From the NCBI RefSeq assembly GCF_050859025.1, contig NZ_CP138200.1, forward strand, positions 1,931,495 through 1,955,494: DNA of 24,000 nucleotides. The letters are read 5' to 3'. Shown piece by piece: positions 487 to 18,968 of the stretch. A model generated the notes under the pieces. That model saw only the letters and a program-made list of their open reading frames with translations, ran no database searches and was not told the DNA's origin. A program made the translations under genes and the position numbers. This stretch comes from Wukongibacter sp. M2B1 (GTDB taxonomy: Bacteria; Bacillota; Clostridia; Peptostreptococcales; Caminicellaceae). Positions within the stretch are counted from its first letter, which is position 1; each line of letters opens with the position of its first letter.

Positions 487-2010
487 GTGAGTTTGTTGGA
501 GGTAAAGTGGAGTATTAAGGACAAGCTAATTTTTATTATATCGGTATCATTTATAGTTCCAATAATCATATTGGGTGTGATAAGTTATAACTATGCGAAA
601 AATGAATTGGATAAAAAGGGTCAGACCATATTAAAAAATAGTGTCAAGATGGTTATTAGCATGATTGATGAAAAAAATAGAGAAGTAGAAAGGGGACAAA
701 TAAGCTTAGAGAATGCCCAAGAAGAAATTAAAGAATATATTTTAGGAAAAAAGAGAAAAGATGGAACAAGATATATGGATAACAATGTAGACTTAGGAGA
801 GAATGGATACTTCATAATATATGGACAAGATGGGTTAGAGGTTGCCCATCCCAGAATAGAAGGTCAGAATATTTGGGACATAGAGGATTATAGTAATAAA
901 AAATATTACTTTGTTAGAGAGGCTATTAACATAGCCAATAAAGGTGGGGGATTTATATATTATGATTGGGTTTATCCAAATTCAGAAAGAATCGGATCTA
1001 AAATAAATTATTCGGAAACTGATCCAAATTGGAATTGGGTTGTTAATGCAACTTCTTATGTTGAGGATTTTAACAAAGGTGCAATAGATATATTGTATGT
1101 ATTAATAGCCACAGTAATTTTAGAGGTCTTAGTAGGATTCACTATAATAATTTTTGTAGCAAAAAAGATATCTGATCCTATAGAAAGATTAGCTTATCAA
1201 GCATTAAAAATTTCTAAAGGCGAGTTGGAAATGAAGGATATCGAGATTGTGGGGAATGATGAAACGGCATACTTGACTATGGCATTTAACCATATGATAA
1301 ATAATATTAAAAAACTAATAAAGGAGATCAAGGATAAAGCAAGATTACAGGCCTTGCTGAAGGAAACTGAGCTAAAGGCATTACAGGCACAGGTAAATCC
1401 TCATTTCCTATTTAATATTTTGAGTGGTATAACCGAAGCTGCATTGGTGGAGGGGTCCAATAAGACCCTTAGAATGGTAGAAGAAATATCAGGAATGCTA
1501 AGATACAGCTTAAGTAGCTTTCATAAAAAAGTCACGTTAGAAGATGAATTAGAAATGGTACAGAGATATGTATATTTACAATCACAGCGATTTGGTGATA
1601 GAATCCTATTTAGAATGAATTTTCCTCAAAAAATACCAAAGATATATATGCCGTGTATGACGATACAGCCAATTGTAGAAAATGCTATTATTCATGGCGT
1701 AGAGAAAAGAATTAAAGGCGGAGTAGTTTCAATATCTTTGAAAGAAAGGGATAAGAAGATAATTGTCAAGGTTGAGGACGATGGTGTAGGAATGGACGAA
1801 GATACAATAGATAGGTTATTTGATTCCGATATACAGGAACCACATACAGGACATACAACCGGTATCGGCATAAACAACGTATATGAACGATTGAAAATTT
1901 ATTATGGGGAAGAAAATCTACTGCGTGTTGAAAGTAAGAAAAACATAGGAACTTGTGTGGAAATAGAGTTGCCTCAGATAGGTTTTTGTGGAGGTGGATC
2001 AGGTGTATAA
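487..2010 (+). CDS. Sensor histidine kinase, YesM-like (single Cache-type extracytoplasmic domain, HAMP, His_kinase PF06580-type DHp, HATPase)
   Basis: 507-aa ORF. It has an N-terminal TM helix and a Cache-like block (GYFIIYGQDGLEVAHP ... GGGFIYYDWVYP ... WNWVVNATSY), then a second TM and a HAMP-like linker. Kinase motifs: phospho-His LQAQVNPHFLFN, N-box IVENAIIHG, G1 DDGVGM, G2 GIGINNV. GTG 487 abuts the AAGAGGGTGA RBS, so TTG 493/496 may be the true start. Confidence 0.85.
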   Translation: MSLLEVKWSIKDKLIFIISVSFIVPIIILGVISYNYAKNELDKKGQTILKNSVKMVISMIDEKNREVERGQISLENAQEEIKEYILGKKRKDGTRYMDNNVDLGENGYFIIYGQDGLEVAHPRIEGQNIWDIEDYSNKKYYFVREAINIANKGGGFIYYDWVYPNSERIGSKINYSETDPNWNWVVNATSYVEDFNKGAIDILYVLIATVILEVLVGFTIIIFVAKKISDPIERLAYQALKISKGELEMKDIEIVGNDETAYLTMAFNHMINNIKKLIKEIKDKARLQALLKETELKALQAQVNPHFLFNILSGITEAALVEGSNKTLRMVEEISGMLRYSLSSFHKKVTLEDELEMVQRYVYLQSQRFGDRILFRMNFPQKIPKIYMPCMTIQPIVENAIIHGVEKRIKGGVVSISLKERDKKIIVKVEDDGVGMDEDTIDRLFDSDIQEPHTGHTTGIGINNVYERLKIYYGEENLLRVESKKNIGTCVEIELPQIGFCGGGSGV

Positions 2011-3595
2011 AGTACTCATTGCAGATGATGAGGCCAGAGAAAGAAATATAGTAAGGATTCTTTTAGAAAGAGAATATCCAGAAATGCTTATCTTTTATGA
2101 AGCTAGTAATGGTGAAGCAGCACTTAAGGAGTTTGAAGAAAAATTACCTCATTTAGTTATTATGGATATACGAATGCCAGGAATGAATGGAATTGAAGTT
2201 ATAAAAGAAATTAGAAAGAAGTCACTGGATGTATATATCATCATTGTTACAGCATATAATTACTTTGAATTTGCCAAGGAAGCGATTAGAATGGGAGTAA
2301 ACGATTTCATACTAAAACCCCCTTCACGGGAAAATTTTAATCAAGCAATTAGTAAATTTATGATGTTGATGAAAAAAAGGGAATCTAATAGAAAAGACCT
2401 GGAAGAAAACAATGAAAAAATAGGCTCATGGATTTCGATAATGAGAAATGATATGGCTATGGCGTTAGCCTATGGAGGAGTGGAAGAGGACCATATAGAT
2501 GATTATTTTGATATATTAAATATAAAGTATGACTGGGGCGTATGTATACTTACTAGTTTAGATACTAATAGTAATAGATTTTATAAAGAAAATGGATTGG
2601 ATATTAGATGGCATTTAGAAAAGATCAATAACTATATTGACAAATATATGAATAAAAACGCATTACAGTATATATCGGGTATACAGGGAAAAAGAGTAAT
2701 TGTATTTTTGTTCCTAAAGGAAAAGGAGAAGAAAGAGAGTAGGGAGAAATCCATAAAGGTTTCTCAAGATATACTTAGATATTTGAATTATGAATGTAGT
2801 TTTTCAATACAAATCGGTATTGGCTTAGGCTATCTATTACCAAGGAATTTGAATAAATCCTATGAAGAAGCCCTGGCAGCGTTAAAGTCTAAAACAAAAG
2901 TATGTCATAACGAACCTATTTATGTATATGAATCACAGCAGCAAGATATTGAAGATAATAGTATGAATTTTGAAAGCATGCTTGCAAAGAAGATTAGGGA
3001 AAGAGATAAAGATGAAGCCATAGATATATTGATTGAGACTTTAACCTATCTCAAAAAGAAGTATGGAAACAAACAAATGATAATAAAAGTAAGACTAATT
3101 GATTTCCTATCATCTATTAGTAAAAGTTGTTTATGTAAGGACAATGTTTCAAAGTATTTAGAGGATTTAAGTCCCATAATAAGCTTAGAAGAGTATCATG
3201 AGATAATAAAGTTTTCTCAAAGATTTGTTGAGAAATTGATAGAACATGTTGATAATCAGCAAAAGAAGAAAAGACATTTTATAATTGACAGGATAATTAC
3301 ATTTGTAAACGAAAATTATCATGAGGCCCTTTCTGTAGAAGAGATTGCTAAAAAATTTTCGATAAGTTCCTTTTATTTTAGTAGGCTGTTTAAGGAGTAT
3401 CAAAATATTAATTTTGTTGATTATATTACACAGGTACGAATAAAAAAAGCTATTGAACTATTTGATGATGAATCACTAAATATTAAAGAAATTGCACATT
3501 TAGTTGGATATCATGATGCCAATTATTTCAGTAGAGTTTTTAAAAAGAATATGGGATTAAGTCCAAAAAAATACCGTGACAGGTTTTTAATATAA
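2003..3595 (+). CDS. Response regulator with AraC-type DNA-binding domain (YesN-like)
   Basis: REC motifs: VLIADDE, VIMDIRMPGMNG, IIVTAY, FILKP. C-terminal double AraC HTH: IAKKFSISSFYFSRLFK ... IAHLVGYHDANYFSRVFKK. Start placed at GTG 2003 behind the GGAGGTGGA RBS, overlapping the kinase stop. The track ORF starts at 1988 in the same frame. Confidence 0.85.
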   Translation: MYKVLIADDEARERNIVRILLEREYPEMLIFYEASNGEAALKEFEEKLPHLVIMDIRMPGMNGIEVIKEIRKKSLDVYIIIVTAYNYFEFAKEAIRMGVNDFILKPPSRENFNQAISKFMMLMKKRESNRKDLEENNEKIGSWISIMRNDMAMALAYGGVEEDHIDDYFDILNIKYDWGVCILTSLDTNSNRFYKENGLDIRWHLEKINNYIDKYMNKNALQYISGIQGKRVIVFLFLKEKEKKESREKSIKVSQDILRYLNYECSFSIQIGIGLGYLLPRNLNKSYEEALAALKSKTKVCHNEPIYVYESQQQDIEDNSMNFESMLAKKIRERDKDEAIDILIETLTYLKKKYGNKQMIIKVRLIDFLSSISKSCLCKDNVSKYLEDLSPIISLEEYHEIIKFSQRFVEKLIEHVDNQQKKKRHFIIDRIITFVNENYHEALSVEEIAKKFSISSFYFSRLFKEYQNINFVDYITQVRIKKAIELFDDESLNIKEIAHLVGYHDANYFSRVFKKNMGLSPKKYRDRFLI

Positions 3596-9726: not shown

Positions 9727-9733
9727 TGTCGAA
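9727..9733 (+). promoter_or_regulatory. Perfect Spo0A-box heptamer (TGTCGAA) about 105 bp upstream of the AbrB-like start codon
   Basis: Exact match to the 0A-box consensus TGNCGAA. One of only three exact TGTCGAA sites I found by eye on either strand of the window. abrB promoters are classical Spo0A targets. Confidence 0.35.
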
Positions 9734-10574: not shown

Positions 10575-12083
10575 TTACAACTTCAAGTAAAACTCTAAAT
10601 CAAAATCTTTCATACCACTATCTTTGTTTTTGGTATATATAATTTTGTCAATGATGCTACTCAAAAAAATATTTTTTTCTTCGGCGTCAACTTCATAATA
10701 ATATGTTTTTAAGAATTCAATACTATTATTAATAAATGGTAACTGGTTTTCTTCAATATTTTTTATCTTCCTTAAACTAGATATTTTCTTCTGTAATTTT
10801 TCTATATCATTATTAGCAACTTCGATTTTGAAAGATAAGGTGTTCATTCTGTTTAGGAAAGTAGCATTATTATATATACCTTGTTCTAATAAATCATACA
10901 ATTTTTCCTTTTGTAGATTTAGTGTTTTAATAAGCTTAATATTTGATTGGATAGTATCCTTTATAACTTTCAATTCAGCACTTTCTACATTTTTCTTGTT
11001 TTTTATAAATTCAAATCTTATTTTTTCTAATTCTTCAATAACAATTTTTACAACTCTCTCTTCAATTAAATATATATAACTTGATTTTACTTTACCACAA
11101 TCCTTGTAACATCTAATATTATCAGGCTTATTCTTTTGAGTTCGGATAGTCATTGTACGGCCACAACCACCACATACAATTAGACCAGCCAGTGGATTTC
11201 TACGCTTTCTATTATCTCGTTTCCTAGGGTTATGTCTTTCTTTTGCAAGTGATTGGGCTTTTTCAAAAATTGTTTCATCTATAATCGCGTCATGTTTACC
11301 TTCAAATACTATCCAATCTTTTCTGTCTTGAAGTCTAGATATTTTTTTACCATCATTGTCGTATCTCTCGATCTTTTTACCCCAAACAATTTTACCCGTA
11401 TAGACAGGGTTTTTCAATATAGTTCTTACAGTAGTTCTATCCCAATTCAAATTATTGTTAGCATTAGGAATTTTATTTTCAATTAAATATTTAGCTATTT
11501 TAGAGTCTCCAAAATCTTGATTTACATACAGATGAAAAATCAATTTAACAACATTAAATTGAGTTTCATGGAATATTAATGTCTTGCCTTCTTTTTTATA
11601 TCCAAAAGGAGCAACAGCACCAATGTAATTACCTTCTTCAAGACTTTTCATCCTCCCACGATGAAGACGTTTCTTTATAATTTTCAGTTCTCTCCGAGCC
11701 ATAAATGCTTCAAACTCACTAAATTCTTCATCAAACTCATTGCTAAGATCATAAATTTTTCTTGGCGTAATGATCTTTGTATCATATCCCTTAAAAGTCT
11801 CCAGAATAAGTCCCTGTTCACGCATATTACCCCTACCAAGCCTATCTATATCCATAACTAATACTGCCTCGTATTTGCCATCCTCGACTTCTCTAAGCAA
11901 TTCCAACATTTTAGGTCGCCTAGTGATAGATTCACCCGAAACAACTTCTTCTTTTATATCTATTATAGTATAATTATTTTTTTGTGCATATGCCAATAGG
12001 GTAGTTCGATGCCTGCTTAAAACTTCCTCATTGGACATATTCTCTTCAGCTCTAGATTTTCTTAAGTAAATACAAACATTCAT
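10575..12083 (-). CDS. Large serine recombinase (phage integrase)
   Basis: 502 aa. The N-terminal resolvase catalytic domain has the YLRKSR nucleophile motif and VMDIDRLGR. It is followed by a recombinase domain, a zinc ribbon (CGGCG ... C-x3-C) and a C-terminal coiled coil. Confidence 0.9.
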   Translation of the reverse strand: MNVCIYLRKSRAEENMSNEEVLSRHRTTLLAYAQKNNYTIIDIKEEVVSGESITRRPKMLELLREVEDGKYEAVLVMDIDRLGRGNMREQGLILETFKGYDTKIITPRKIYDLSNEFDEEFSEFEAFMARRELKIIKKRLHRGRMKSLEEGNYIGAVAPFGYKKEGKTLIFHETQFNVVKLIFHLYVNQDFGDSKIAKYLIENKIPNANNNLNWDRTTVRTILKNPVYTGKIVWGKKIERYDNDGKKISRLQDRKDWIVFEGKHDAIIDETIFEKAQSLAKERHNPRKRDNRKRRNPLAGLIVCGGCGRTMTIRTQKNKPDNIRCYKDCGKVKSSYIYLIEERVVKIVIEELEKIRFEFIKNKKNVESAELKVIKDTIQSNIKLIKTLNLQKEKLYDLLEQGIYNNATFLNRMNTLSFKIEVANNDIEKLQKKISSLRKIKNIEENQLPFINNSIEFLKTYYYEVDAEEKNIFLSSIIDKIIYTKNKDSGMKDFDLEFYLKL

Positions 12084-12173: not shown

Positions 12174-12824
12174 CTATTGTTGGATGTAACAATTTTGCAT
12201 TTTAAAATAATTCCCATCTTTAATAGTTACATATTTACTATTTTCAAAAGTATCATTGCTTATTATAGAATCTATAGTTCCTAAGTTATTCTTAGCAACT
12301 TCAACATATGGCATAGTACCATCAGAAAGAACTTTATATTCGCCAGCTGGAATATCAAATCCTACTTTATATTTACCAGCAATATATTTACCATCCACAG
12401 GTTCATATTTTGGAGCTTCTTTTATTGGGACTGCATAGCAACCTTGGAGTTTTACATACTGCCCATCGCTAATAGATATATAGGAAAATGTTGAGAAATT
12501 ATCATTTGCAATTATACTATCAAAATTTCCTGAACTATCTTTATTAATTTCATAATAGGACATAGCTCCGTTTCCGAATAATTTGTATTCACCAGATGGC
12601 AGATCAGTTCCAATTTTGTAATCTCCGGCTTTGTATTTTGTAAACTTTTCTTCTGGACTAGATTTTTCTTTAGCTTTTTCATTTTCAGGTGTTTCCTTGC
12701 TTTCGATGTTTGCAGCTTCTTTAGATACTTCATCTTGGGATTTCTTATCCCCACCACCTGCTATAGCACCTATAACTATTAGGGCAACAATAGCAATTCC
12801 TATCCATTTTAAAATCTTTTTCAT
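12174..12824 (-). CDS. Membrane-anchored protein with an internally duplicated ~70-aa extracytoplasmic domain, function unknown
   Basis: N-terminal TM anchor (WIGIAIVALIVIGAIAGG) and a K/E-rich linker. Two clearly related repeats follow: YKAGDYKIGTDLPSGEYKLF...DSIIANDNF...ISISDGQYVKLQGCY and YIAGKYKVGFDIPAGEYKVL...DSIISNDTF...VTIKDGNYFKMQNCY. Confidence 0.6.
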   Translation of the reverse strand: MKKILKWIGIAIVALIVIGAIAGGGDKKSQDEVSKEAANIESKETPENEKAKEKSSPEEKFTKYKAGDYKIGTDLPSGEYKLFGNGAMSYYEINKDSSGNFDSIIANDNFSTFSYISISDGQYVKLQGCYAVPIKEAPKYEPVDGKYIAGKYKVGFDIPAGEYKVLSDGTMPYVEVAKNNLGTIDSIISNDTFENSKYVTIKDGNYFKMQNCYIQQ

Positions 12825-12897
12825 AAGTCTCCTCCTTAGATATAATAATTTGCAGAATTATTATATAATACTAGTCATGTAATATTTTAGCAAAACA

Positions 12898-12904
12898 TGT
12901 CGAA
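12898..12904 (+). promoter_or_regulatory. Perfect Spo0A-box heptamer (TGTCGAA), distal site in the divergent promoter region of the agr-like operon
   Basis: Context: AACATGTCGAAAAT. Exact 0A-box consensus. Confidence 0.35.
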
Positions 12905-12989
12905 AATACAAAAATATATTTTGAATTTGAATAGTTTCTATTTGTCAAGGCAAAAACTTAAATTGGTAAAAATTACAATATAAATGGGA

Positions 12990-13007
12990 ATGTTGAAAAT
13001 TCAACAT
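12990..13007. promoter_or_regulatory. 18-bp perfect palindrome, candidate operator upstream of the agr-like operon
   Basis: ATGTTGAA-AA-TTCAACAT, about 75 bp upstream of the 13081 start codon. Confidence 0.35.
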
Positions 13008-13017
13008 CTGCAAAAAA

Positions 13018-13024
13018 TGTCGAA
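13018..13024 (+). promoter_or_regulatory. Perfect Spo0A-box heptamer (TGTCGAA), proximal site about 60 bp upstream of the agr-like operon
   Basis: Context: AAAATGTCGAATTT. Same orientation as the distal site, 120 bp away. Confidence 0.35.
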
Positions 13025-13080
13025 TTTCTTAAATTTTCACAAGTAAAAAAAAATGTTACTATTAAAAAAGAGGAGGGATT

Positions 13081-13965
13081 ATGAATATGTATGTAGATAT
13101 TAATAAAATATTGCTAATAGGTATGCCAGAAACACTTTTAAATATACTATTTGGATTACTAATTTATAAAGGAAGAGAATCTCTAAAAGAAAAAAGTAAT
13201 ATTTGGAAGATTTCATTAATATCTATTGTATTCCCATTATTAGCTTTTAGTATAAAAGGTTACTTAAATAATAGCATTCAAATTCAAATGATACCTGCAT
13301 TGATTATCTTAATTATTTTTATAAAAGTATTGTGGAAAACGAATGTCAGGTGTGCTTTTTTAATGAGTGCAATGGCAACTTTCATAACGTCTATAGGTGA
13401 AATTGCAACAATGCAACCTGTATCAGGTTATATTAAAAATATAATTGCTTTACATGGCTTTATGCATATAAAAGCATTAATAATATGGACTATTCCAACA
13501 AGAATAATTCAATTAATTACTATTTTAGTAGTATATAAATTCAATTTAACATTTAAGAATAATAAATTGCTTTATGGTGAATGGAATGAATTATCTTCAA
13601 CACAGAAAATGACAACTTATAGCTTATTCATACATTTACTAATATCAATCACTATTAGTACAGGCTATGTTGAAATCTTTGTAAAAGCTATGAATAGAAA
13701 TATGTCTATTGACTTTATTAAAATCCCATTAATTGTAATGCTGTTTGGCTCACTTTACATTATCTTTTCAGCATTAAATATATTATTTAGACAAACATTG
13801 TTGGAAGACATAAAAGGTTTATTTTCCCAGGGGGCAAGTAAATTATTCGAAAATATGCTTGAAGCTAGTAACGAGGAAAGACTTTTAGATTACAAGTTGC
13901 AACTTGATAATAAAATGAAAGAATTATCATTAAATGAAAGGAGAGAATCGAATGAAAAAGTTTAG
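13081..13965 (+). CDS. Polytopic (6-7 TM) membrane protein resembling the sensor module of AgrC-type receptors but lacking any kinase domain
   Basis: 294 aa. Six to seven hydrophobic helices span the first ~240 residues. A ~55-aa charged, coiled-coil-like tail follows (…EERLLDYKLQLDNKMKELSLNERRESNEKV) with no His, no H-box and no N/G boxes. The 3' end overlaps the agrD-like start by 14 nt. Confidence 0.5.
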   Translation: MNMYVDINKILLIGMPETLLNILFGLLIYKGRESLKEKSNIWKISLISIVFPLLAFSIKGYLNNSIQIQMIPALIILIIFIKVLWKTNVRCAFLMSAMATFITSIGEIATMQPVSGYIKNIIALHGFMHIKALIIWTIPTRIIQLITILVVYKFNLTFKNNKLLYGEWNELSSTQKMTTYSLFIHLLISITISTGYVEIFVKAMNRNMSIDFIKIPLIVMLFGSLYIIFSALNILFRQTLLEDIKGLFSQGASKLFENMLEASNEERLLDYKLQLDNKMKELSLNERRESNEKV

Positions 13966-14092
13966 CAAGTATTTTCGATATTTATTAGTAGGAACAGGAG
14001 TGCTTCTAATATTTCAAGCTTTAGCTACAAATCCATCAATGGCTTGCCTAGTTGGAGCACATCAAAATGAAACTCCAGATTGCATGAAATAA
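13952..14092 (+). CDS. agrD: AgrD-like autoinducing-peptide precursor (46 aa; below the ORF-track size cutoff)
   Basis: Translation: MKKFSKYFRYLLVGTGVLLIFQALATNPSMACLVGAHQNETPDCMK. AAAGGAGAG RBS lies 7 nt upstream. It has a basic plus hydrophobic leader, a Cys followed by 4 residues, then an HQ-x-E-x-P tail. C. perfringens AgrD has the same layout (…ATSACLWFTHQPEEP…), as does C. difficile AgrD1 (…CPWIIHQPKVP…), both as I recall them. Confidence 0.7.
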   Translation: MKKFSKYFRYLLVGTGVLLIFQALATNPSMACLVGAHQNETPDCMK

Positions 14093-14156
14093 TAGCATTA
14101 CAAATAGATTAATATAAATGAAAGGGCCCTTCATTTATAAAATTAGGTGATATCTA

Positions 14157-14834
14157 ATGATTAAAGCAGTTTTTATTGATGATACAATGGAATATTTGCA
14201 ATGTATTCAAGAATATATGGGAGACTACTTTAAAGAAAAAGGAATATCATTCAAAACTTATTTGATGAAAGACAAGAATGATGATATAAGAATAGAAAAT
14301 GAAATAGTAAAAGAACAACCTGATCTTATATTCTGTGATATGGCTATGCCCCATTGTGACGGCTCTACGCTAATCAAGAGAATCACAAAGATTTATAAAC
14401 CCACAACAATTCTAATTAGTGCAGTTGAGAAAATCAATATCCACAAAGATGAGTTTGATTATATACTAAGGAAACAAATGGATCTTGATATTCTTAAGGA
14501 AGCAATAAATTTAATTATTAGAAGTTTTGAACTTCAAGAAGAACTTACGATTGATGAAATTTTATCAATTGAGTTTCCATACTTGAAATATACTGAAAGA
14601 ATGTATCTAAGAGAAATTGTAAGAAAGTTCAAAGATGTTGAAAATCCTAAAAAAGTTAAAGTTTCTGATATTTCTAGAGCAACAAATAAAGAAGTACATA
14701 CAACAATAGATAGAATTAACAGATTTATAAAAAAAATGTTTAAAGAGAAAATTGATAGAGACTTATTTTTATTTGAGCTATTGAAAGTAGTTTATAAAAG
14801 GGGTTTTCCGAATGATAAACGAAACAGCGAGTAA
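14157..14834 (+). CDS. Response regulator with Spo0A-like C-terminal DNA-binding domain
   Basis: The REC domain has all key residues: FIDD, DLIFCDMAMPHCDG (compare Spo0A DIIMPHLDG), ILISA, YILRK. The C-terminal half parallels Spo0A_C: ERMYLREIV vs GYLYLREAI, and NKEVHTTIDRINRFIKKMF vs TTASRVERAIRHAIEVAW. No LytTR domain. Confidence 0.55.
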   Translation: MIKAVFIDDTMEYLQCIQEYMGDYFKEKGISFKTYLMKDKNDDIRIENEIVKEQPDLIFCDMAMPHCDGSTLIKRITKIYKPTTILISAVEKINIHKDEFDYILRKQMDLDILKEAINLIIRSFELQEELTIDEILSIEFPYLKYTERMYLREIVRKFKDVENPKKVKVSDISRATNKEVHTTIDRINRFIKKMFKEKIDRDLFLFELLKVVYKRGFPNDKRNSE

Positions 14835-15426
14835 AATTAGCAAACTTTTATCAGGACCTGTTTCTGATTCAAAATATTTTGAGGAGTTTTCTAAAGATGA
14901 GATAGAGAATATTATTACATATAATATGGTTAACAATATAAAACAGTGGATTTGGATAATAGCTCTTTTACTATCCACTTGGTTATTACTAATTGCTGGC
15001 ATTGATATAAGGTTTACAACATTGATTATATTTATAACGATTGTAGCATTTCGAAGCAGATTTGGAGGATATCACGCGGATTCTGCAAAAGTATGTATAA
15101 TAATAAGCACAATTATTCCAATTGTCTGTGCATATATAACCATATTTTTAGATTTCAATTTATATCTTATTGTTACTGTGTATATATTTGCATATTTTAC
15201 AGCATTTAAAAAAGGTGTTGTGGACCATCCAAATCGTAGGTTTCAAGAAGGTAACAAAATATTAAATTTAGAAATGAAAAGAAGGCTTTTCAAGACAGGC
15301 GTTATTTTACTAGTTGCCATTAATATAATCCATATACATCTGTTTTTAATTGGCTATGTTTCAATAAGCGATGCAATGACATTGGGAACATTGATTAGTT
15401 TTATAAACTTATATTTTGGGAAATAG
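14812..15426 (+). CDS. agrB: AgrB-family membrane peptidase/cyclase
   Basis: 204 aa with about 5-6 TM helices. It has the hallmark catalytic motif FRSRFGGYHADSAKVC (AgrB consensus R..aGG.HA.s...C with the essential His and Cys). A downstream VDHPNRRF ... KRR basic loop resembles AgrB (a.tpnkP...k.kk). Overlaps the regulator gene by 23 nt. Confidence 0.8.
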   Translation: MINETASKISKLLSGPVSDSKYFEEFSKDEIENIITYNMVNNIKQWIWIIALLLSTWLLLIAGIDIRFTTLIIFITIVAFRSRFGGYHADSAKVCIIISTIIPIVCAYITIFLDFNLYLIVTVYIFAYFTAFKKGVVDHPNRRFQEGNKILNLEMKRRLFKTGVILLVAINIIHIHLFLIGYVSISDAMTLGTLISFINLYFGK

Positions 15427-15515
15427 AGATTTTTTTAGAAAGGGTACCTAAATCATCATTTGGATTCGTATTCTTATTATAGGGACTCTAAGCTTTTCTA
15501 AAGGGGGGAGGATTG

Positions 15516-15653
15516 ATGGATAGGGATAAAATAAAGAAAGACACTGAATCTCAATCTAATAAGGATGCAAAGAAAGAAATATGTACCAATCTCCCAAAGA
15601 CTTTTTCTAGAATAGTTGATGATGAAATAATCATAACTAAAAAGAGAGAATAA
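15516..15653 (+). CDS. 45-aa hydrophilic peptide ORF downstream of agrB, function unknown
   Basis: Translation: MDRDKIKKDTESQSNKDAKKEICTNLPKTFSRIVDDEIIITKKRE. A very strong RBS (AAGGGGGGAGG) lies 4-5 nt upstream. It ends just before the bidirectional terminator. One Cys, and no signal or amphipathic leader. Confidence 0.45.
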   Translation: MDRDKIKKDTESQSNKDAKKEICTNLPKTFSRIVDDEIIITKKRE

Positions 15654-15654
15654 T

Positions 15655-15682
15655 AAATACCTCAGTTGTGTCTGAGGTATTT
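15655..15682. terminator. Bidirectional terminator between the agr-like operon and the convergent repressor gene
   Basis: Perfect 11-bp inverted repeat AAATACCTCAG / CTGAGGTATTT with a 6-nt loop. Confidence 0.75.
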
Positions 15683-15693
15683 CACATTGGAAA

Positions 15694-16086
15694 CTATTTA
15701 TTTTTATATTTCTTTTTTACTTCTATATATATCTTTAATCCTTCAATTAAGTCATCCGGATCTATTTCTTCCTTTTTCATTTTTTTTGCAAATTCAATAT
15801 ATTTAATATTTTGAGAAGCAAATAGTTCACGGTACTCTTCTGGTACTAGTGGAGTCAATTCTTCTTTACTATATGTTTGCTTTGATGGATTTCTATCATT
15901 CGTTCTACATAGTAAATAATCTATTGATACATCAAAGTAATCTGCCATCTTTCTTAAAGTATTAGAATCCGGATCTCTTTTCCCTTTTTCATAGGCACTA
16001 ATAGTTTGCTGAGTAACTTGGAATACTTCAGCAAATTCACTTTGACTTAATCCTTTTTCTTTTCTCAACATTGCAATCCTATTCAT
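15694..16086 (-). CDS. CI-like phage repressor (XRE-family HTH)
   Basis: MNRIAMLRKEKGLSQSEFAEVFQVTQQTISAYEKGKRDPD... is a classic HTH_3, followed by a ~65-aa C-terminal domain. Start placed at ATG 16084-16086 behind an AAAGGTGA RBS. The 184-aa track ORF merely reads on through the operator region. Confidence 0.85.
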   Translation of the reverse strand: MNRIAMLRKEKGLSQSEFAEVFQVTQQTISAYEKGKRDPDSNTLRKMADYFDVSIDYLLCRTNDRNPSKQTYSKEELTPLVPEEYRELFASQNIKYIEFAKKMKKEEIDPDDLIEGLKIYIEVKKKYKNK

Positions 16087-16119
16087 ATAATCACCTTTTT
16101 TTTTATTCCTTTCTATTAT

Positions 16120-16134
16120 ACAACTTTTAGTGGT
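16120..16134. promoter_or_regulatory. Degenerate fourth operator copy next to the leftward (repressor) promoter
   Basis: ACAACTTTTAGTGGT matches ACAAC-N5-GTTGT with one arm mismatch. It touches a minus-strand TATAAT at 16115-16120. Confidence 0.4.
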
Positions 16135-16167
16135 TAAAGAAAAACAGAAAAATGTTGTATTTTTGTA

Positions 16168-16196
16168 TTGACTACAACAAATAGTTGTGATATTAT
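16168..16196 (+). promoter_or_regulatory. Rightward early promoter (PR-like)
   Basis: TTGACT (16168-16173), a 17-bp spacer, then TATTAT (16191-16196; TATAAT also at 16194-16199). The spacer is occupied by operator O1. Confidence 0.55.
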
Positions 16197-16215
16197 AATT
16201 ACAACAAATAGTTGT
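16174..16215. promoter_or_regulatory. Two identical 15-bp palindromic operators (16174-16188 and 16201-16215) flanking the -10 of PR
   Basis: ACAACAAATAGTTGT occurs twice exactly, 27 bp centre to centre, between the divergent repressor and cro-like genes. Confidence 0.75.
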
Positions 16216-16237
16216 TATTGTTGAAGGAGGTGTTATC

Positions 16238-16471
16238 TTGAGAGACATTTTAATAAATCTACGTGGTAAAAAAAGTCAATCAGAAGTTGCTGAAAAACTT
16301 GGAATCACTCAACAGTTTCTTAGTGCCATAGAAAGAGAAGAGAAGAACCCCAGCATTACCATTATGCGGAAATTTGAGGAACACTATAATAAGAGCATGG
16401 TTGAGCTGTTTCCCGATATTTTTTTAAGAGAAAATACAACAAATAGTTGTAAAATAGCAACAATTAATTAA
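16238..16471 (+). CDS. Cro-like XRE-family HTH protein
   Basis: 77 aa. TTG start 7 nt after the GAAGGAGG RBS. HTH: KSQSEVAEKLGITQQFLSAIEREEKNPS. Divergent from the repressor gene. Confidence 0.8.
   Translation: MRDILINLRGKKSQSEVAEKLGITQQFLSAIEREEKNPSITIMRKFEEHYNKSMVELFPDIFLRENTTNSCKIATIN
16436..16450. promoter_or_regulatory. Third exact operator copy inside the 3' end of the cro-like gene
   Basis: ACAACAAATAGTTGT again, 235 bp downstream of the 16201 copy. Confidence 0.65.
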
Positions 16472-18074: not shown

Positions 18075-18968
18075 TTGATTATAGGTATTGACAAAGGTAG
18101 TGCGTACACAAAGACTAGCAAGGATGTAATTATTAAAAGTACGGTACGAGATTTAAGTGAAGATGACATAAATCTAAATGATAGCCTATTCATTGAAATG
18201 GATGGAGAAGAACACTTTGTAGGTGGAGAAGGTAGTTTTGCAACTGATCTTAAGAAAGCAGAGCATAAGAGTACTAGAATCCTCACTTATACAGCTATAG
18301 CAAAGAGTTTTGAGGAAACTCTTATAAATACTGATTTAGTATTAGGACTGCCAATAGGGCATTATTCACGCAATAAAGATAAAATGAAGGAACTGTTTAA
18401 TGGGAAGTCTGCGACGATTAGCATTAATGGTAATCAGAAAGTAATTAAAATCATGAATGTTGAAGTATTTCCTGAGTGTGCAGCTGCTAAATTCACCCAA
18501 AATATAGATAGTGGACTGTTCATTGATATAGGAGGACTCAGTGTAGACAATGCTCTATTCAAAAATGGAAAGCTCGAAAAACACTCTACATTTACTATGG
18601 GAACCATGAAACTACTTTCTAAAATCGCAGATTATCTAAATGCAGAACATGATTTATCCCTAACAGAATGGGGAGCTGAAGAAATACTAAAAGATGGATT
18701 GACCATAGATGGCGAGGTAATAGACATAAAGTCAGGCACAGAGGAAGTTATCAGAGATCATGTTAAAAAGATTCTTGAAAGAATTAAGCTTCAATATGAT
18801 ACGAGGATGATTAAAAACATAATCTTTACAGGCGGCGGAAGCCTTATGTGCTTTGATTTTTTTAAGAAATACATACCACAAGCTACGAGGATGGAAAATA
18901 CTCAATTTAGCAATGCTAAAGGCTTTGAACTTATAGGAAGAAAATTGTTTGGTGGTAACGATGCTTAA
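18075..18968 (+). CDS. parM: ParM/StbA-family actin-like ATPase
   Basis: TTG start after the TAGGAGGGA RBS. Actin-fold motifs: phosphate-1 IIGIDKGSAYTKT, phosphate-2 LFIDIGGLSVDNALF, adenosine IIFTGGGSLM. Confidence 0.75.
   Translation: MIIGIDKGSAYTKTSKDVIIKSTVRDLSEDDINLNDSLFIEMDGEEHFVGGEGSFATDLKKAEHKSTRILTYTAIAKSFEETLINTDLVLGLPIGHYSRNKDKMKELFNGKSATISINGNQKVIKIMNVEVFPECAAAKFTQNIDSGLFIDIGGLSVDNALFKNGKLEKHSTFTMGTMKLLSKIADYLNAEHDLSLTEWGAEEILKDGLTIDGEVIDIKSGTEEVIRDHVKKILERIKLQYDTRMIKNIIFTGGGSLMCFDFFKKYIPQATRMENTQFSNAKGFELIGRKLFGGNDA

What the first reader, a model, noticed from the sequence alone, without database searches (positions are those of the whole stretch)
12825..15690. Prophage-borne, kinase-less agr-type peptide-signalling cassette between integrase and the CI/Cro switch
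Five co-oriented ORFs form two translationally coupled pairs plus a peptide gene.
- Pair 1: a multi-TM sensor-like protein (13081-13965) overlapping an AgrD-like pre-peptide (13952-14092, absent from the ORF track).
- Pair 2: a Spo0A-like response regulator (14157-14834) overlapping AgrB (14812-15426).
- Then a 45-aa ORF (15516-15653).

Canonical agr loci are agrBDCA, with an HPK10 histidine kinase (AgrC) and a LytTR regulator (AgrA). This window has neither a DHp/ATPase kinase domain in the cassette nor a LytTR domain anywhere, and the gene order is unusual.

The cassette sits where temperate Bacillus phages carry arbitrium (aimR-aimP-aimX), next to the lysogeny module. It is transcribed towards the 3' end of the repressor gene, separated only by one bidirectional hairpin (15655-15682).

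Phage-encoded agr genes are known from C. difficile phage phiCDHM1 (agrB, agrD, agrC). A version pairing an AIP with a kinase-less receptor-like protein and a Spo0A-type regulator is, as far as I know, undescribed.

Hypothesis: the phage makes its own cyclic thiolactone signal and couples it, and/or the host Spo0A phosphorylation state, to the lysis-lysogeny decision or to host sporulation.
Basis: partly seen in the sequence, partly recalled or inferred. Interest (0 to 1): 0.9.

Follow-up and report, generated by a model that had tools for sequence, protein, structure and literature searches.

The report
Prophage agr-type peptide signalling cassette
A prophage of the salt-lake anaerobe Wukongibacter carries a complete-looking but unusual peptide quorum-sensing module (AgrB, AgrD, a kinase-less membrane protein and a response regulator) beside its lysogeny switch, and its promoter carries conserved binding sites for the host sporulation master regulator Spo0A.

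Summary
Five co-oriented genes at 13081-15653 sit between a serine recombinase and a CI/Cro switch. AgrB is solid: PF04647 at 62.5 bits, with the catalytic His/Cys motif conserved. The 46-aa peptide belongs to an AgrD-like family; orthologues pass TIGR04223 and all share A-C-x4-[GH]Q..PD. The regulator has a genuine receiver with all phospho-acceptor residues, but no Spo0A_C or LytTR domain. The 294-aa, roughly 7-TM protein founds a family of about 60 members with no annotation and no kinase motifs.

The same order (TM protein, AgrD, regulator, AgrB) recurs in at least nine independent loci:
- five phage loci, carrying either serine or tyrosine integrases;
- a DndB/MrpR mobile element;
- one chromosomal-looking locus.

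New here: a consensus Spo0A box (TGTCGAA) lies 28-30 bp upstream of an extended -10 in eight of eight divergent loci (about 145-fold enrichment). Host Spo0A~P therefore most likely gates the cassette.

Still inferred: receptor function for the TM protein, the source of regulator phosphorylation, and the output.

No prior description was found. Known phage agr loci (phiCDHM1) have agrC, agrB and agrD, lack a regulator, and sit elsewhere in the genome.

Verdict: a new variant of agr signalling on mobile elements, and well worth experiments.

The parts
10575..12083 (-). Large serine recombinase (prophage integrase); prophage left end lies just beyond it
   Evidence: Pfam Resolvase, Recombinase and Zn_ribbon_recom. 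Host metabolic and two-component genes fill 1 to about 9600.
12174..12824 (-). Lipoprotein-like moron with weak superinfection-exclusion (Sie)-like N-terminal similarity, between integrase and cassette
   Evidence: PHROG 23726 (E 4e-30) plus Sie-like PHROGs 8545 and 15667. NCBIfam Rv1352/Rv1906c domain, two copies.
12898..12904 (+). Distal consensus 0A box TGTCGAA, within the 15-nt repeat GCAAAACATGTCGAA at 12890-12904
   Evidence: Invariant in the alignment of four phage promoters.
13018..13024 (+). Proximal consensus 0A box TGTCGAA, 29 bp upstream of the extended -10 (about -51 to -45)
   Evidence: The 28-30 bp spacing is conserved in 8 of 8 loci.
13054..13062 (+). Extended -10 element TGTTACTAT of the cassette promoter
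   Evidence: Sequence. TGnTAnnAT is conserved in all compared loci.
13081..13965 (+). 294-aa membrane protein: about 7 TM helices, predicted N-out/C-in, with a conserved 59-aa cytoplasmic tail. Founder of an unannotated family. Candidate peptide receptor in the position AgrC would occupy, but with no kinase domain.
   Evidence: No Pfam, NCBIfam, PHROG, PADLOC or PDB hit.
13952..14092 (+). AgrD-like pre-peptide (46 aa), MKKFSKYFRYLLVGTGVLLIFQALATNPSMA-CLVGA-HQNETPDCMK, translationally coupled to the TM gene
   Evidence: Orthologues pass TIGR04223: L006 22.6 bits and L016 21.8 bits, cut-off 19. 50% identity to the L006 peptide, E 3e-13.
14157..14834 (+). Response regulator: receiver domain with invariant DD, D61, S88 and K106, plus a roughly 95-aa helical C-terminal domain carrying a probable helix-turn-helix of no known family
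14812..15426 (+). AgrB (AgrD-processing membrane endopeptidase) with the conserved GG-x-H-x-x-S-x-x-x-C motif; overlaps the regulator gene by 23 nt
   Evidence: PF04647, 62.5 bits. Motif invariant in 7 sequences, including phiCDHM1 AgrB.
15516..15653 (+). Small charged ORF (45 aa) with a strong Shine-Dalgarno sequence. Conserved in position, not in sequence, in all five phage loci. Candidate effector; function unknown.
15655..15682 (.). Bidirectional terminator hairpin between the cassette and the convergent repressor gene
15694..16089 (-). CI-type HTH_3 repressor. The likely true start is MNRIAML at 16089; the mechanical ORF extends to 16248.
   Evidence: HTH_3 at residues 58-112 of the 184-aa ORF; PHROG 8. 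Intergenic operators lie at 16120-16215.
16174..16215 (.). Two palindromic operator sites ACAACAAATAGTTGT (16174-16188 and 16201-16215), with a third copy at 16436-16450. None lies near the cassette promoter.
   Evidence: 8 matches against 1.8 expected.
16238..16471 (+). Cro-like HTH_3 protein, divergent from the repressor

Best explanation
This is a mobile-element-borne, non-canonical agr-type peptide signalling operon. Here it is carried by a prophage of Wukongibacter baidiensis M2B1, between the integrase and the CI/Cro switch.

Shown by sequence:
- AgrB, with its catalytic His and Cys.
- An AgrD-type precursor, whose expected product is a five-residue thiolactone ring C-L-V-G-A, cleaved before HQNETPDCMK.
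- A response regulator that looks phosphorylatable and has an unclassified helix-turn-helix output domain.
- A roughly 7-TM protein with no kinase domain, whose gene is always translationally coupled to the peptide gene.
- A promoter carrying consensus Spo0A boxes at a fixed, activator-type position.

Inferred mechanism:
1. Host Spo0A~P, present at entry into stationary phase or sporulation, switches the operon on.
2. AgrB matures and exports the peptide.
3. The 7-TM protein senses extracellular peptide. It signals to the regulator through its conserved cytoplasmic tail and loops by protein-protein contact, not by phosphotransfer. The regulator's Asp may be phosphorylated by host sporulation-type kinases or by acetyl phosphate.
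4. The regulator, and possibly the small downstream ORF, then acts on phage or host promoters that are not yet identified. This would couple lysogen density and host sporulation state to prophage behaviour.
For: - AgrB: PF04647 at 62.5 bits; GGxHxxSxxxC invariant.
- AgrD: the motif A-C-x4-[GHQ][EQ]xPxP[ED]x[LM][KR] is present in all 13 loci. TIGR04223 is above its cut-off for L006 and L016 and just below it for five more. The window peptide is 50% identical to the L006 peptide.
- Regulator: PF00072; DD/D61/S88/K106 invariant in 8 homologues; receiver fold confirmed, with Spo0F and Spo0A receivers among the best matches.
- TM protein: about 7 TM helices and a conserved cytoplasmic tail; 60 relatives, short and long forms; always immediately upstream of, and overlapping, an AgrD-like gene.
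- Operon order conserved in phages with serine recombinases (window, L002) or a tyrosine integrase (L006), in DndB/MrpR elements (L008, L014, L016) and in a chromosomal-looking locus (L005).
- 0A boxes: 15 of 21 TGTCGAA occurrences in 131 kb lie in the 2.2 kb of cassette promoters, Poisson P about 1e-27. The box-to-extended -10 spacing is 28-30 bp in 8 of 8 loci.
- TGTCGAA is the Spo0A core motif in both Bacillus and C. difficile (PMC3485338 and PMC2731898).
- Loci L003/L004 lack a full regulator and AgrB yet keep the box.
- The regulator's helix-turn-helix does not conserve the residues aligned to Spo0A's SRVER segment.
Against: - No experiment supports any step. No peptide has been detected.
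- The TM protein has no detectable homology to AgrC or to any sensor: hhalign probability 0.8-2.8%, and the AlphaFold model was unusable at pLDDT 39.
- No kinase for the regulator has been identified.
- The regulator's targets are unknown. No shared motif links the cassette to the CI/Cro operators.
- The window's own peptide gets no direct AgrD profile hit.
- I did not verify that the host encodes Spo0A or sporulates.
- A match to the 0A-box consensus is not proof of binding.
- The terminator between the cassette and the repressor gene argues against simple antisense control.
Confidence: 0.55

Rival explanations
1. The 7-TM protein is not the receptor. It is an AgrD maturation, export or immunity factor, a functional analogue of the leader-removing membrane protease MroQ in staphylococci. 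The peptide would be sensed by a host-encoded AgrC-type kinase, which phosphorylates the cassette's regulator.
For: - The TM gene is translationally coupled to agrD in every locus.
- TM and AgrD persist together in L003/L004, where no AgrB is nearby.
- Near-invariant polar residues sit in TM helices: P16, E17 and R141.
- There is no kinase domain, while the regulator keeps a phosphorylatable Asp.
Against: - No hit to CPBP/Abi or any other peptidase family.
- Long forms carry an extra cytoplasmic domain of about 130 aa, and all forms have a conserved cytoplasmic tail. That is unexpected for a simple protease or exporter.
- In L003/L004 the partner that is kept is a receiver-less homologue of the regulator's output domain. 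This fits a sensor-regulator pair better.
- Four components (B, D, regulator, X) otherwise leave the system without a dedicated sensor.
Confidence: 0.25
2. The TGTCGAA boxes are bound by the cassette's own regulator, giving an AgrA-at-P2-style autoinduction loop, and not by host Spo0A.
For: - Canonical agr operons are autoactivated by their own regulator (established knowledge).
- The boxes occur as two copies in the phage loci.
- hhalign places the regulator's helix-turn-helix on the Spo0A recognition-helix region.
- The receiver resembles Spo0A and Spo0F receivers.
Against: - The regulators' C-terminal domains are only 17-58% identical, yet the 7-mer and its spacing are essentially invariant. 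That fits a highly conserved host protein better.
- There is no Spo0A_C hit, and the SRVER segment is not conserved.
- L003/L004 keep the box without a receiver-containing regulator.
Confidence: 0.25
3. The cassette is a lysogenic-conversion module (moron). It manipulates host physiology, for example sporulation timing, by draining or competing for Spo0A-pathway phosphoryl groups, or kin signalling among lysogens. It does not control the phage's own lysis-lysogeny decision.
For: - The same module occurs on non-phage elements and in a chromosomal-looking context.
- It sits in the moron-rich zone next to a Sie-like gene.
- A terminator insulates it from the repressor gene.
- No operator motifs are shared with the switch.
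- The receiver is closest to sporulation phosphorelay receivers.
- There is precedent: phage RRNPP systems are predicted to hijack sporulation (bioRxiv 10.1101/2021.07.15.452460).
Against: - In five independent phage loci the cassette always occupies the same slot directly abutting the repressor gene, and it carries a phage-specific fifth ORF. This suggests integration with the switch.
- No target is known for either reading.
Confidence: 0.35
4. It is a decaying remnant of a canonical agrBDCA locus captured by a phage, with a truncated agrC, and is no longer functional.
For: The TM protein is roughly the length of an AgrC sensor module plus a linker. An 8-residue juxtamembrane motif (Y-E-x-[YF]-K-x-[IL]-L) resembles the HPK10 H-box of phiCDHM1 AgrC (LYHDMKNHL), with His replaced by Glu.
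Against: - All genes are intact.
- They are conserved under divergence down to 20-30% identity in at least nine loci, with overlapping-gene coupling, ribosome-binding sites and promoter architecture all preserved.
- The long forms also lack the N, G1 and G2 boxes.
- There is no significant similarity to AgrC.
Confidence: 0.03

Closest known systems
Canonical agr quorum sensing (agrBDCA; Staphylococcus, and clostridial agr loci such as those of C. acetobutylicum and C. difficile agr2)
   Same: AgrB endopeptidase with the His/Cys motif. An AgrD-type precursor with an amphipathic leader, a Cys followed by four ring residues, and a charged proline-containing tail. A four-component logic of processing enzyme, peptide, membrane protein and response regulator.
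   Different: No HPK10 histidine kinase and no LytTR regulator. The gene order is X-D-R-B, not B-D-C-A. The membrane protein and the regulator's output domain belong to no described family. The promoter carries Spo0A boxes, not AgrA repeats.
Phage-encoded agr of Clostridioides difficile phage phiCDHM1 (Hargreaves et al. 2014, PMC3901668)
   Same: A temperate phage of the Peptostreptococcales carrying agrB and agrD.
   Different: phiCDHM1 has a full-length 453-aa AgrC kinase and no regulator, in the order agrC-agrB-agrD. The genes lie next to the lysis genes, not between integrase and repressor. tblastn with the window's AgrB found nothing in INPHARED phages.
Arbitrium (aimR-aimP-aimX) of SPbeta-like and other Bacillus phages
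   Same: A phage-encoded peptide communication operon in the lysogeny-control neighbourhood. It ends in a small, poorly conserved ORF or transcript that could be the effector.
   Different: Arbitrium uses a linear hexapeptide that is imported and bound by an intracellular TPR (RRNPP) receptor. Here the chemistry is agr-type (AgrB-made cyclic peptide), the putative sensor is a membrane protein, and no AimR-like TPR protein is present.
Spo0A-box control of phage development (phi29 and Nf; Meijer and co-workers, PMC2731898)
   Same: Consensus 0A boxes (TGTCGAA) in phage DNA let the phage read the host's sporulation state.
   Different: In phi29 and Nf the boxes repress early lytic promoters and replication of a virulent phage. 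Here the boxes sit at an activator-type position in front of a quorum-sensing operon of a temperate phage.
Viral RRNPP systems predicted to hijack sporulation (Bernard et al., bioRxiv 10.1101/2021.07.15.452460)
   Same: The concept of prophage-borne quorum sensing linked to the host Spo0A pathway in spore-formers, including clostridia.
   Different: Those systems are RRNPP type (Rap-Phr and similar) with intracellular receptors. That study does not mention agr-type systems.

Membership tests
AgrB (PF04647) | Profile match above the curated threshold | tested here: met
   62.5 bits against a cut-off of 23, covering profile positions 14-179 of 185. Orthologues score 61.1 and 61.8 bits.
AgrB (PF04647) | Catalytic His and Cys (the S. 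aureus H77/C84 equivalents; numbering from memory) | tested here: met
   GG-x-H-x-x-S-x-x-x-C is invariant in 7 aligned sequences, including phiCDHM1 AgrB.
AgrB (PF04647) | Endopeptidase/cyclase activity on AgrD | not testable with these tools
   Requires biochemistry or LC-MS.
AgrD (TIGR04223 / PF05931) | Profile match above the curated threshold | tested here: inconclusive
   The window peptide gets no hit. Positional orthologues L006 (22.6 bits) and L016 (21.8 bits) pass the 19-bit cut-off, and five others score 13-17 bits. The window peptide is 50% identical to the L006 peptide, E 3e-13.
AgrD (TIGR04223 / PF05931) | Short precursor: hydrophobic/amphipathic leader, a Cys (or Ser) followed by four ring residues, then a charged C-terminal recognition tail | tested here: met
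   All 13 loci show MKK + hydrophobic stretch + A-C-x4-[GHQ][EQ]xPxP[ED]x[LM][KR].
AgrD (TIGR04223 / PF05931) | Encoded in an operon with agrB | tested here: met
   Same operon in the window and in L001, L002, L005, L006, L009 and L014. The genes are not adjacent, and no AgrB lies nearby in L003/L004.
Canonical agrBDCA system | AgrC: an HPK10 histidine kinase with an H-box His and a GHKL ATPase domain | tested here: not met
   No HisKA or HATPase hit in the TM protein or in 58 relatives. There is no His in the juxtamembrane helix and no N, G1 or G2 boxes in the long forms. hhalign against phiCDHM1 AgrC gives probability below 3%.
Canonical agrBDCA system | AgrA: a response regulator with a LytTR DNA-binding domain | tested here: not met
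   No LytTR hit in any regulator of the family. Only weak, generic helix-turn-helix signals appear.
Response regulator receiver (PF00072) | Profile match and the conserved acidic pocket, phospho-acceptor Asp, Ser/Thr and Lys | tested here: met
   34.1 bits against a cut-off of 30.2. D8, D9, D61, S88 and K106 are invariant in 8 homologues. Foldseek matches receiver domains.
Spo0A (TIGR02875; Spo0A_C PF08769) | Spo0A C-terminal DNA-binding domain | tested here: not met
   No PF08769 hit at E up to 10. TIGR02875 scores 33.7 bits against a cut-off of 200, over the receiver only. hhalign against the 1LQ1 sequence gives probability 4.4%. The PDB profile search does not retrieve 1FC3 or 1LQ1.
Spo0A regulon (0A-box promoters) | Consensus 0A box TGTCGAA in the promoter region | tested here: met
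   Two perfect boxes at 12898 and 13018. Enrichment and fixed spacing hold across loci. The motif definition comes from PMC3485338 and PMC2731898.
Spo0A regulon (0A-box promoters) | Binding by, and dependence on, host Spo0A~P; host encodes Spo0A | not tested
Binding needs EMSA or ChIP.
Arbitrium (AimR-AimP-AimX) | An intracellular TPR/RRNPP receptor and a linear secreted peptide matured from a Sec-dependent pro-peptide | tested here: not met
   No TPR or AimR-like protein in the cassette. The peptide is AgrD-like and is paired with AgrB.
Temperate prophage lysogeny module | Integrase, a divergent CI/Cro pair with repeated operators, and downstream replication genes | tested here: met
   Syntenic phage contigs L001, L002 and L006. 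Structural genes lie outside the window and were not examined.

The most novel reading that the evidence does not exclude
A lineage of temperate phages, and other mobile elements, of Clostridia runs an 'arbitrium-like' communication circuit built from agr chemistry.
- The operon is switched on by host Spo0A~P.
- It makes a thiolactone peptide.
- The peptide is sensed outside the cell by a previously unknown 7-TM receptor family that has no kinase.
- The receptor signals to a response-regulator-type transcription factor by direct contact, not by phosphotransfer.
- The circuit sets prophage induction or lysogeny according to lysogen density and the host's commitment to sporulation.
Probability: 0.22. 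Interest if true: 0.92.

Novelty: new variant of a known kind. Interest (0 to 1): 0.78.

Why it matters
- It would extend phage-phage peptide communication beyond Bacillus RRNPP/arbitrium systems to anaerobic Clostridia, and to cyclic (agr-type) signals sensed at the membrane.
- It defines two uncharacterised protein families that replace AgrC and AgrA: a 7-TM partner of AgrD with about 60 members in short and long forms, and a receiver-HTH regulator. This raises the question of how an agr signal is transduced without a histidine kinase.
- The conserved Spo0A box gives a concrete, testable wire between the host's sporulation decision and a mobile-element quorum-sensing circuit. That bears on the long-standing question of how temperate phages of spore-formers time induction against entrapment in the spore.
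- The host strain is cultured and its genome is complete (M2B1, CP138200). It carries two paralogous cassettes, so the predictions can be tested directly.

Tried and rejected
1. Structure route for the TM protein. AlphaFold2 with a 3-sequence alignment gave pLDDT 39, which is unusable, so no fold search was run on it.
2. Sequence and profile links of the TM family to kinases or sensors. There were no relevant hits in:
   - Pfam per member;
   - PDB profiles of all forms and of long forms;
   - hhalign against phiCDHM1 AgrC, alone and as a 3-sequence profile.
   The H-box-like motif with His replaced by Glu is only an 8-residue resemblance, and I do not rely on it.
3. The regulator as Spo0A. 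Rejected.
4. Fold search of the regulator model. It returned only receiver domains; the C-terminal domain was modelled too poorly (pLDDT about 55) to classify.
5. A search for the cassette in curated collections found nothing in:
   - INPHARED phages;
   - IMG/VR;
   - GTDB species representatives.
   JGI metagenomes gave only one canonical agr locus, L013, which has a genuine AgrC and serves as an outgroup.
6. Defence-system models (PADLOC) gave nothing relevant.
7. CI operator motifs near the cassette promoter: none.
8. Word-seeded profile search with the 58-sequence alignment returned only 4 proteins.
9. The second cassette of the M2B1 genome could not be fetched.

Full report
**1. Observation**

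The five ORFs are present as described:
- a 294-aa membrane protein (13081-13965);
- a small peptide gene (13934/13952-14092);
- a 225-aa regulator (14157-14834);
- a 204-aa AgrB (14812-15426);
- a 45/46-aa ORF (15513/15516-15653).

All five are on the + strand. The peptide gene most likely starts at 13952: GGAG lies 8 nt upstream, and the homologues all begin MKK. It overlaps the stop codon of the membrane-protein gene by 14 nt. The regulator and agrB genes overlap by 23 nt.

The surroundings match the finding:
- Upstream lie a large serine recombinase (10575-12083, -) and a Sie-like lipoprotein gene (12174-12824, -).
- Downstream, across an 11-bp-stem hairpin (15655-15682; -14.6/-15.1 kcal/mol, z about -3.2/-3.7), lies a convergent HTH_3 repressor followed by a divergent Cro-like gene.
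- Positions 1 to about 9600 hold host genes: a Cache/His_kinase sensor, an AraC-type response regulator and CoA metabolism genes.
- To the right are phage early genes: a ParM-like actin, a DnaD-like protein and YopX.

The window is from Wukongibacter sp./baidiensis M2B1. This is an anaerobic halophile from a Xinjiang salt lake, with a complete genome under CP138200 (PMC11916717).

**2. The individual parts**

*AgrB.* The assignment is secure. PF04647 scores 62.5 bits against a cut-off of 23. The GG-x-H-x-x-S-x-x-x-C motif, with the catalytic His and Cys, is invariant in all homologues and in phiCDHM1 AgrB.

*The peptide.*
- The window's peptide does not itself hit an AgrD model.
- It belongs to a family of positional orthologues found in every related locus.
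- They all share MKK, a hydrophobic helix, and then A-C-x4-[GHQ]-[EQ]-x-P-x-P-[ED]-x-[LM]-[KR].
- Two of them pass the curated TIGR04223 AgrD threshold of 19 bits: L006 at 22.6 and L016 at 21.8. Five more score 13-17 bits.
- The window peptide is 50% identical to the L006 peptide over 36 residues, E 3e-13.
- By analogy with known AgrD processing (established knowledge), the product should be a five-residue thiolactone ring C-L-V-G-A, with HQNETPDCMK removed by AgrB. The length of the N-terminal tail cannot be predicted.

*The regulator.*
- It has a genuine receiver: PF00072 at 34.1 bits. The AlphaFold model has pLDDT 75-94 over residues 1-80, and Foldseek matches receiver domains.
- D8, D9, D61, S88 and K106 are invariant in eight homologues, so it looks phosphorylatable.
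- Its closest sequence and structure matches include Spo0A and Spo0F receivers, but only marginally ahead of other receivers.
- The C-terminal domain of about 95 residues is helical, with a probable helix-turn-helix. It gives only weak, generic HTH signals and no Spo0A_C or LytTR match.
- hhalign against the Spo0A DNA-binding domain sequence of PDB 1LQ1 aligns only the helix-turn-helix, at probability 4.4%. The SRVER residues are not conserved.
- 'Spo0A-type' is therefore not supported.

*The 294-aa membrane protein.*
- It has about seven TM helices. The predicted topology is N-out/C-in, with a conserved cytoplasmic loop (152-182) and a conserved 59-residue cytoplasmic tail, RQTLLEDxK...MLEASxE...YxLQL.
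- It has no Pfam, NCBIfam, PHROG, PADLOC or PDB relative.
- An exhaustive profile search of 1.84 billion representatives found 60 relatives. Most are 265-305 aa. About a dozen are 387-464 aa, with an extra C-terminal domain of about 130 residues.
- Neither form has a His in the juxtamembrane helix, N/G1/G2 ATPase motifs, or any kinase profile hit.
- Profile comparison with the genuine AgrC of phage phiCDHM1 is not significant, at probability 0.8-2.8%.
- The family is therefore new and unannotated.

*The fifth ORF.* It is conserved in position and size (36-46 aa) and carries a strong Shine-Dalgarno sequence in all five phage loci. Apart from the start Met, no residue is conserved. It is probably translated. 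Its function is unknown.

**3. Conservation and distribution**

The order TM protein, AgrD, regulator, AgrB recurs in several settings:
- Phage contigs with the same 'small ORF, convergent repressor, Cro' continuation: L001, L002 (serine recombinase), L006/L007 (tyrosine integrase) and L009.
- Elements in which it follows a DndB-like gene and an MrpR-type recombinase, with an integrase, an antirepressor and PemK nearby: L008, L014 and L016.
- L005, with a long-form TM protein beside a peptide transporter and a peptidase.

L003/L004 keep only three parts: the TM protein, AgrD, and a 134-aa protein that weakly resembles the regulator's C-terminal half (E 0.003 against L014 residues 133-231). They have no AgrB nearby.

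The M2B1 genome holds a second, paralogous cassette, with TM protein 64% and regulator 62% identical.

The family is rare. It is absent from INPHARED, IMG/VR and the GTDB representatives at the sensitivity available.

**4. New cis-regulatory finding**

Upstream of the TM gene the window has two copies of GCAAAAnATGTCGAA, 120 bp apart. The core TGTCGAA is present in the equivalent region of 11 of 13 loci; L008 has a one-mismatch variant (TGTCGGA) and the short L009 flank has none.

- Of the 21 occurrences in 131 kb of loci, 15 fall in the 2.2 kb of cassette promoter regions. That is about 145-fold enrichment, Poisson P about 1e-27. L006/L007 and L003/L004 are related pairs, so the effective number is somewhat lower.
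- In all eight loci with a proximal box on the + strand (including one-mismatch variants in L002 and L008), the box ends 28-30 bp (29 bp in six) upstream of an extended -10, TGnTAnnAT. This places it at about -51 to -45, an activator-type position. These loci encode proteins only 20-30% identical.
- TGTCGAA is the core Spo0A box of B. subtilis and is recognised in the same way by C. difficile Spo0A (PMC3485338). Phi29-family phages use it to read host sporulation (PMC2731898).

The cassette regulators' output domains are very divergent, and the receiver-less L003/L004 loci keep the box. The nearly invariant host Spo0A is therefore the more parsimonious reader. Autoregulation by the cassette regulator remains a rival.

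The palindromic CI-type operators (ACAACAAATAGTTGT at 16174, 16201 and 16436) are confined to the switch and are absent from the cassette promoter.

**5. Mechanism**

Shown:
- a biosynthetic pair (AgrB and AgrD);
- a regulator that looks phosphorylatable;
- a conserved membrane partner of AgrD without kinase motifs;
- 0A boxes at a fixed promoter position;
- a constant slot next to the repressor gene in phages.

Inferred:
- Spo0A~P activates the operon.
- The peptide accumulates with lysogen density.
- The 7-TM protein is the sensor and controls the regulator through its cytoplasmic tail and loops. The regulator's Asp may be fed by host sporulation-type kinases or acetyl phosphate.
- The regulator and/or the small ORF product acts on phage or host targets.

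The main alternatives are:
- the TM protein is a maturation or export factor;
- the regulator itself binds the boxes;
- the module is a host-manipulating moron and not a lysis-lysogeny device.

Overall confidence in the composite model is about 0.55. It is high for peptide production, moderate for the Spo0A input, and low for the receptor role and the output.

**6. Comparison with what is known, and novelty**

- Against canonical agr, two of the four defining components (the HPK10 kinase and the LytTR regulator) were tested and not met. It works like an agr system on the production side but is not a canonical member.
- Against phiCDHM1, the phage agr differs in gene content, order and genomic position. 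A 2025 review lists phage agr homologues only as agrB, agrC and agrD without a regulator (PMC11945551).
- Against arbitrium, location and logic are similar, but the chemistry and the receptor class differ.
- Surveys of viral quorum sensing linked to sporulation cover only RRNPP systems.
- Literature searches found no description of this operon type or of these protein families.

I rate it a new variant of a known kind, with high interest.

Noticed in passing
Not in window; same genome (proteins P0002, P0006): The M2B1 chromosome encodes a second, paralogous copy of the TM protein (64% identity) and the regulator (62%). Two related cassettes, and probably two prophages, therefore sit in one host, which raises questions of peptide specificity groups and cross-talk. 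The DNA could not be fetched.
   Followed up: partly
window 16120-16215 and 16436-16450: Palindromic operator-like sites ACAACAAATAGTTGT: two perfect copies 27 bp apart between the repressor and cro genes, a third perfect copy near the end of cro, and a degenerate one at 16120. This is the classic CI/Cro operator layout.
   Followed up: partly
window 15694-16248 (-): The mechanical 184-aa repressor ORF has an implausible Cys/Thr-rich N-terminal extension that runs through the operator region. The true start is probably MNRIAML at 16089, giving a protein of about 131 aa.
   Followed up: partly
window 12174-12824 (-): A lipoprotein-like moron between the integrase and the cassette. It has two Rv1352/Rv1906c-type repeats and weak superinfection-exclusion (Sie)-like N-terminal similarity.
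   Followed up: no
L003 8001-9706; L004 8001-9737: A reduced version of the module (TM protein, AgrD-like peptide, and a 134-aa receiver-less homologue of the regulator's output half; no AgrB) sits directly after Ku/LigD genes. It has an inverted 0A box. L004 also has a Spo0E-like gene about 6 kb upstream.
   Followed up: partly
L008 308-2588; L014 5571-7829; L016 1766-4091: In three loci the cassette immediately follows a DndB-like gene and an MrpR-type tyrosine recombinase, with an integrase, a P22-type antirepressor and PemK toxin genes nearby. This appears to be a second, non-CI/Cro type of mobile element carrying the same module.
   Followed up: no
Proteins P0018, P0021, P0023, P0025, P0026, P0029-31, P0042, P0049, P0053 (alignment A8, columns about 300-450): Long-form family members carry an extra C-terminal domain of about 130 aa. 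It has conserved 'Y-x-I-D' and 'D-Y-T' motifs, no Pfam or PDB match and no ATP-binding glycine motifs. Its fold and function are unknown.
   Followed up: partly
window aa 237-248 of the TM protein (DNA 13789-13824); relatives in A7/A8: The juxtamembrane motif R-T-x-x-Y-E-x-[YF]-K-x-[IL]-L (RQTLLEDIKGLF in the window) resembles the HPK10 H-box of phiCDHM1 AgrC (LYHDMKNHL), with Glu where the phospho-accepting His would be. It is too short to be significant and lies at a different distance from the last TM helix.
   Followed up: partly
window 14113-14139: A 10-bp-stem hairpin (AUAAAUGAAG...CUUCAUUUAU) lies between agrD and the regulator gene and has no U-tract. It could be a processing or partial-termination signal that sets the TM/AgrD to regulator/AgrB stoichiometry. 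The fold z-score for the region is not significant.
   Followed up: partly
window 9727-9733 (+): The only other consensus 0A box in the window lies just outside the integrase end of the prophage, between two small minus-strand ORFs. Its relevance is unknown.
   Followed up: no
window 487-3595 (+): A host two-component pair about 9.5 kb upstream of the cassette: a Cache + HAMP + His_kinase (PF06580) + HATPase_c sensor and an AraC-type response regulator. It is a genuine kinase in the window but outside the prophage, and nothing suggests it partners the cassette regulator.
   Followed up: no
L008 4121-4728: In this long-form locus the called regulator ORF starts about 300 nt after the peptide gene and aligns only from receiver position about 91 onward. 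This could be a miscalled start, a frameshift, or a naturally truncated receiver.
   Followed up: no
window 18075-18968 (+): The prophage encodes a ParM/Alp-like actin (ALP_N + MreB-like_C), which is also present in L001. This is unusual for an integrating phage and hints at a plasmid-like segregation stage.
   Followed up: no
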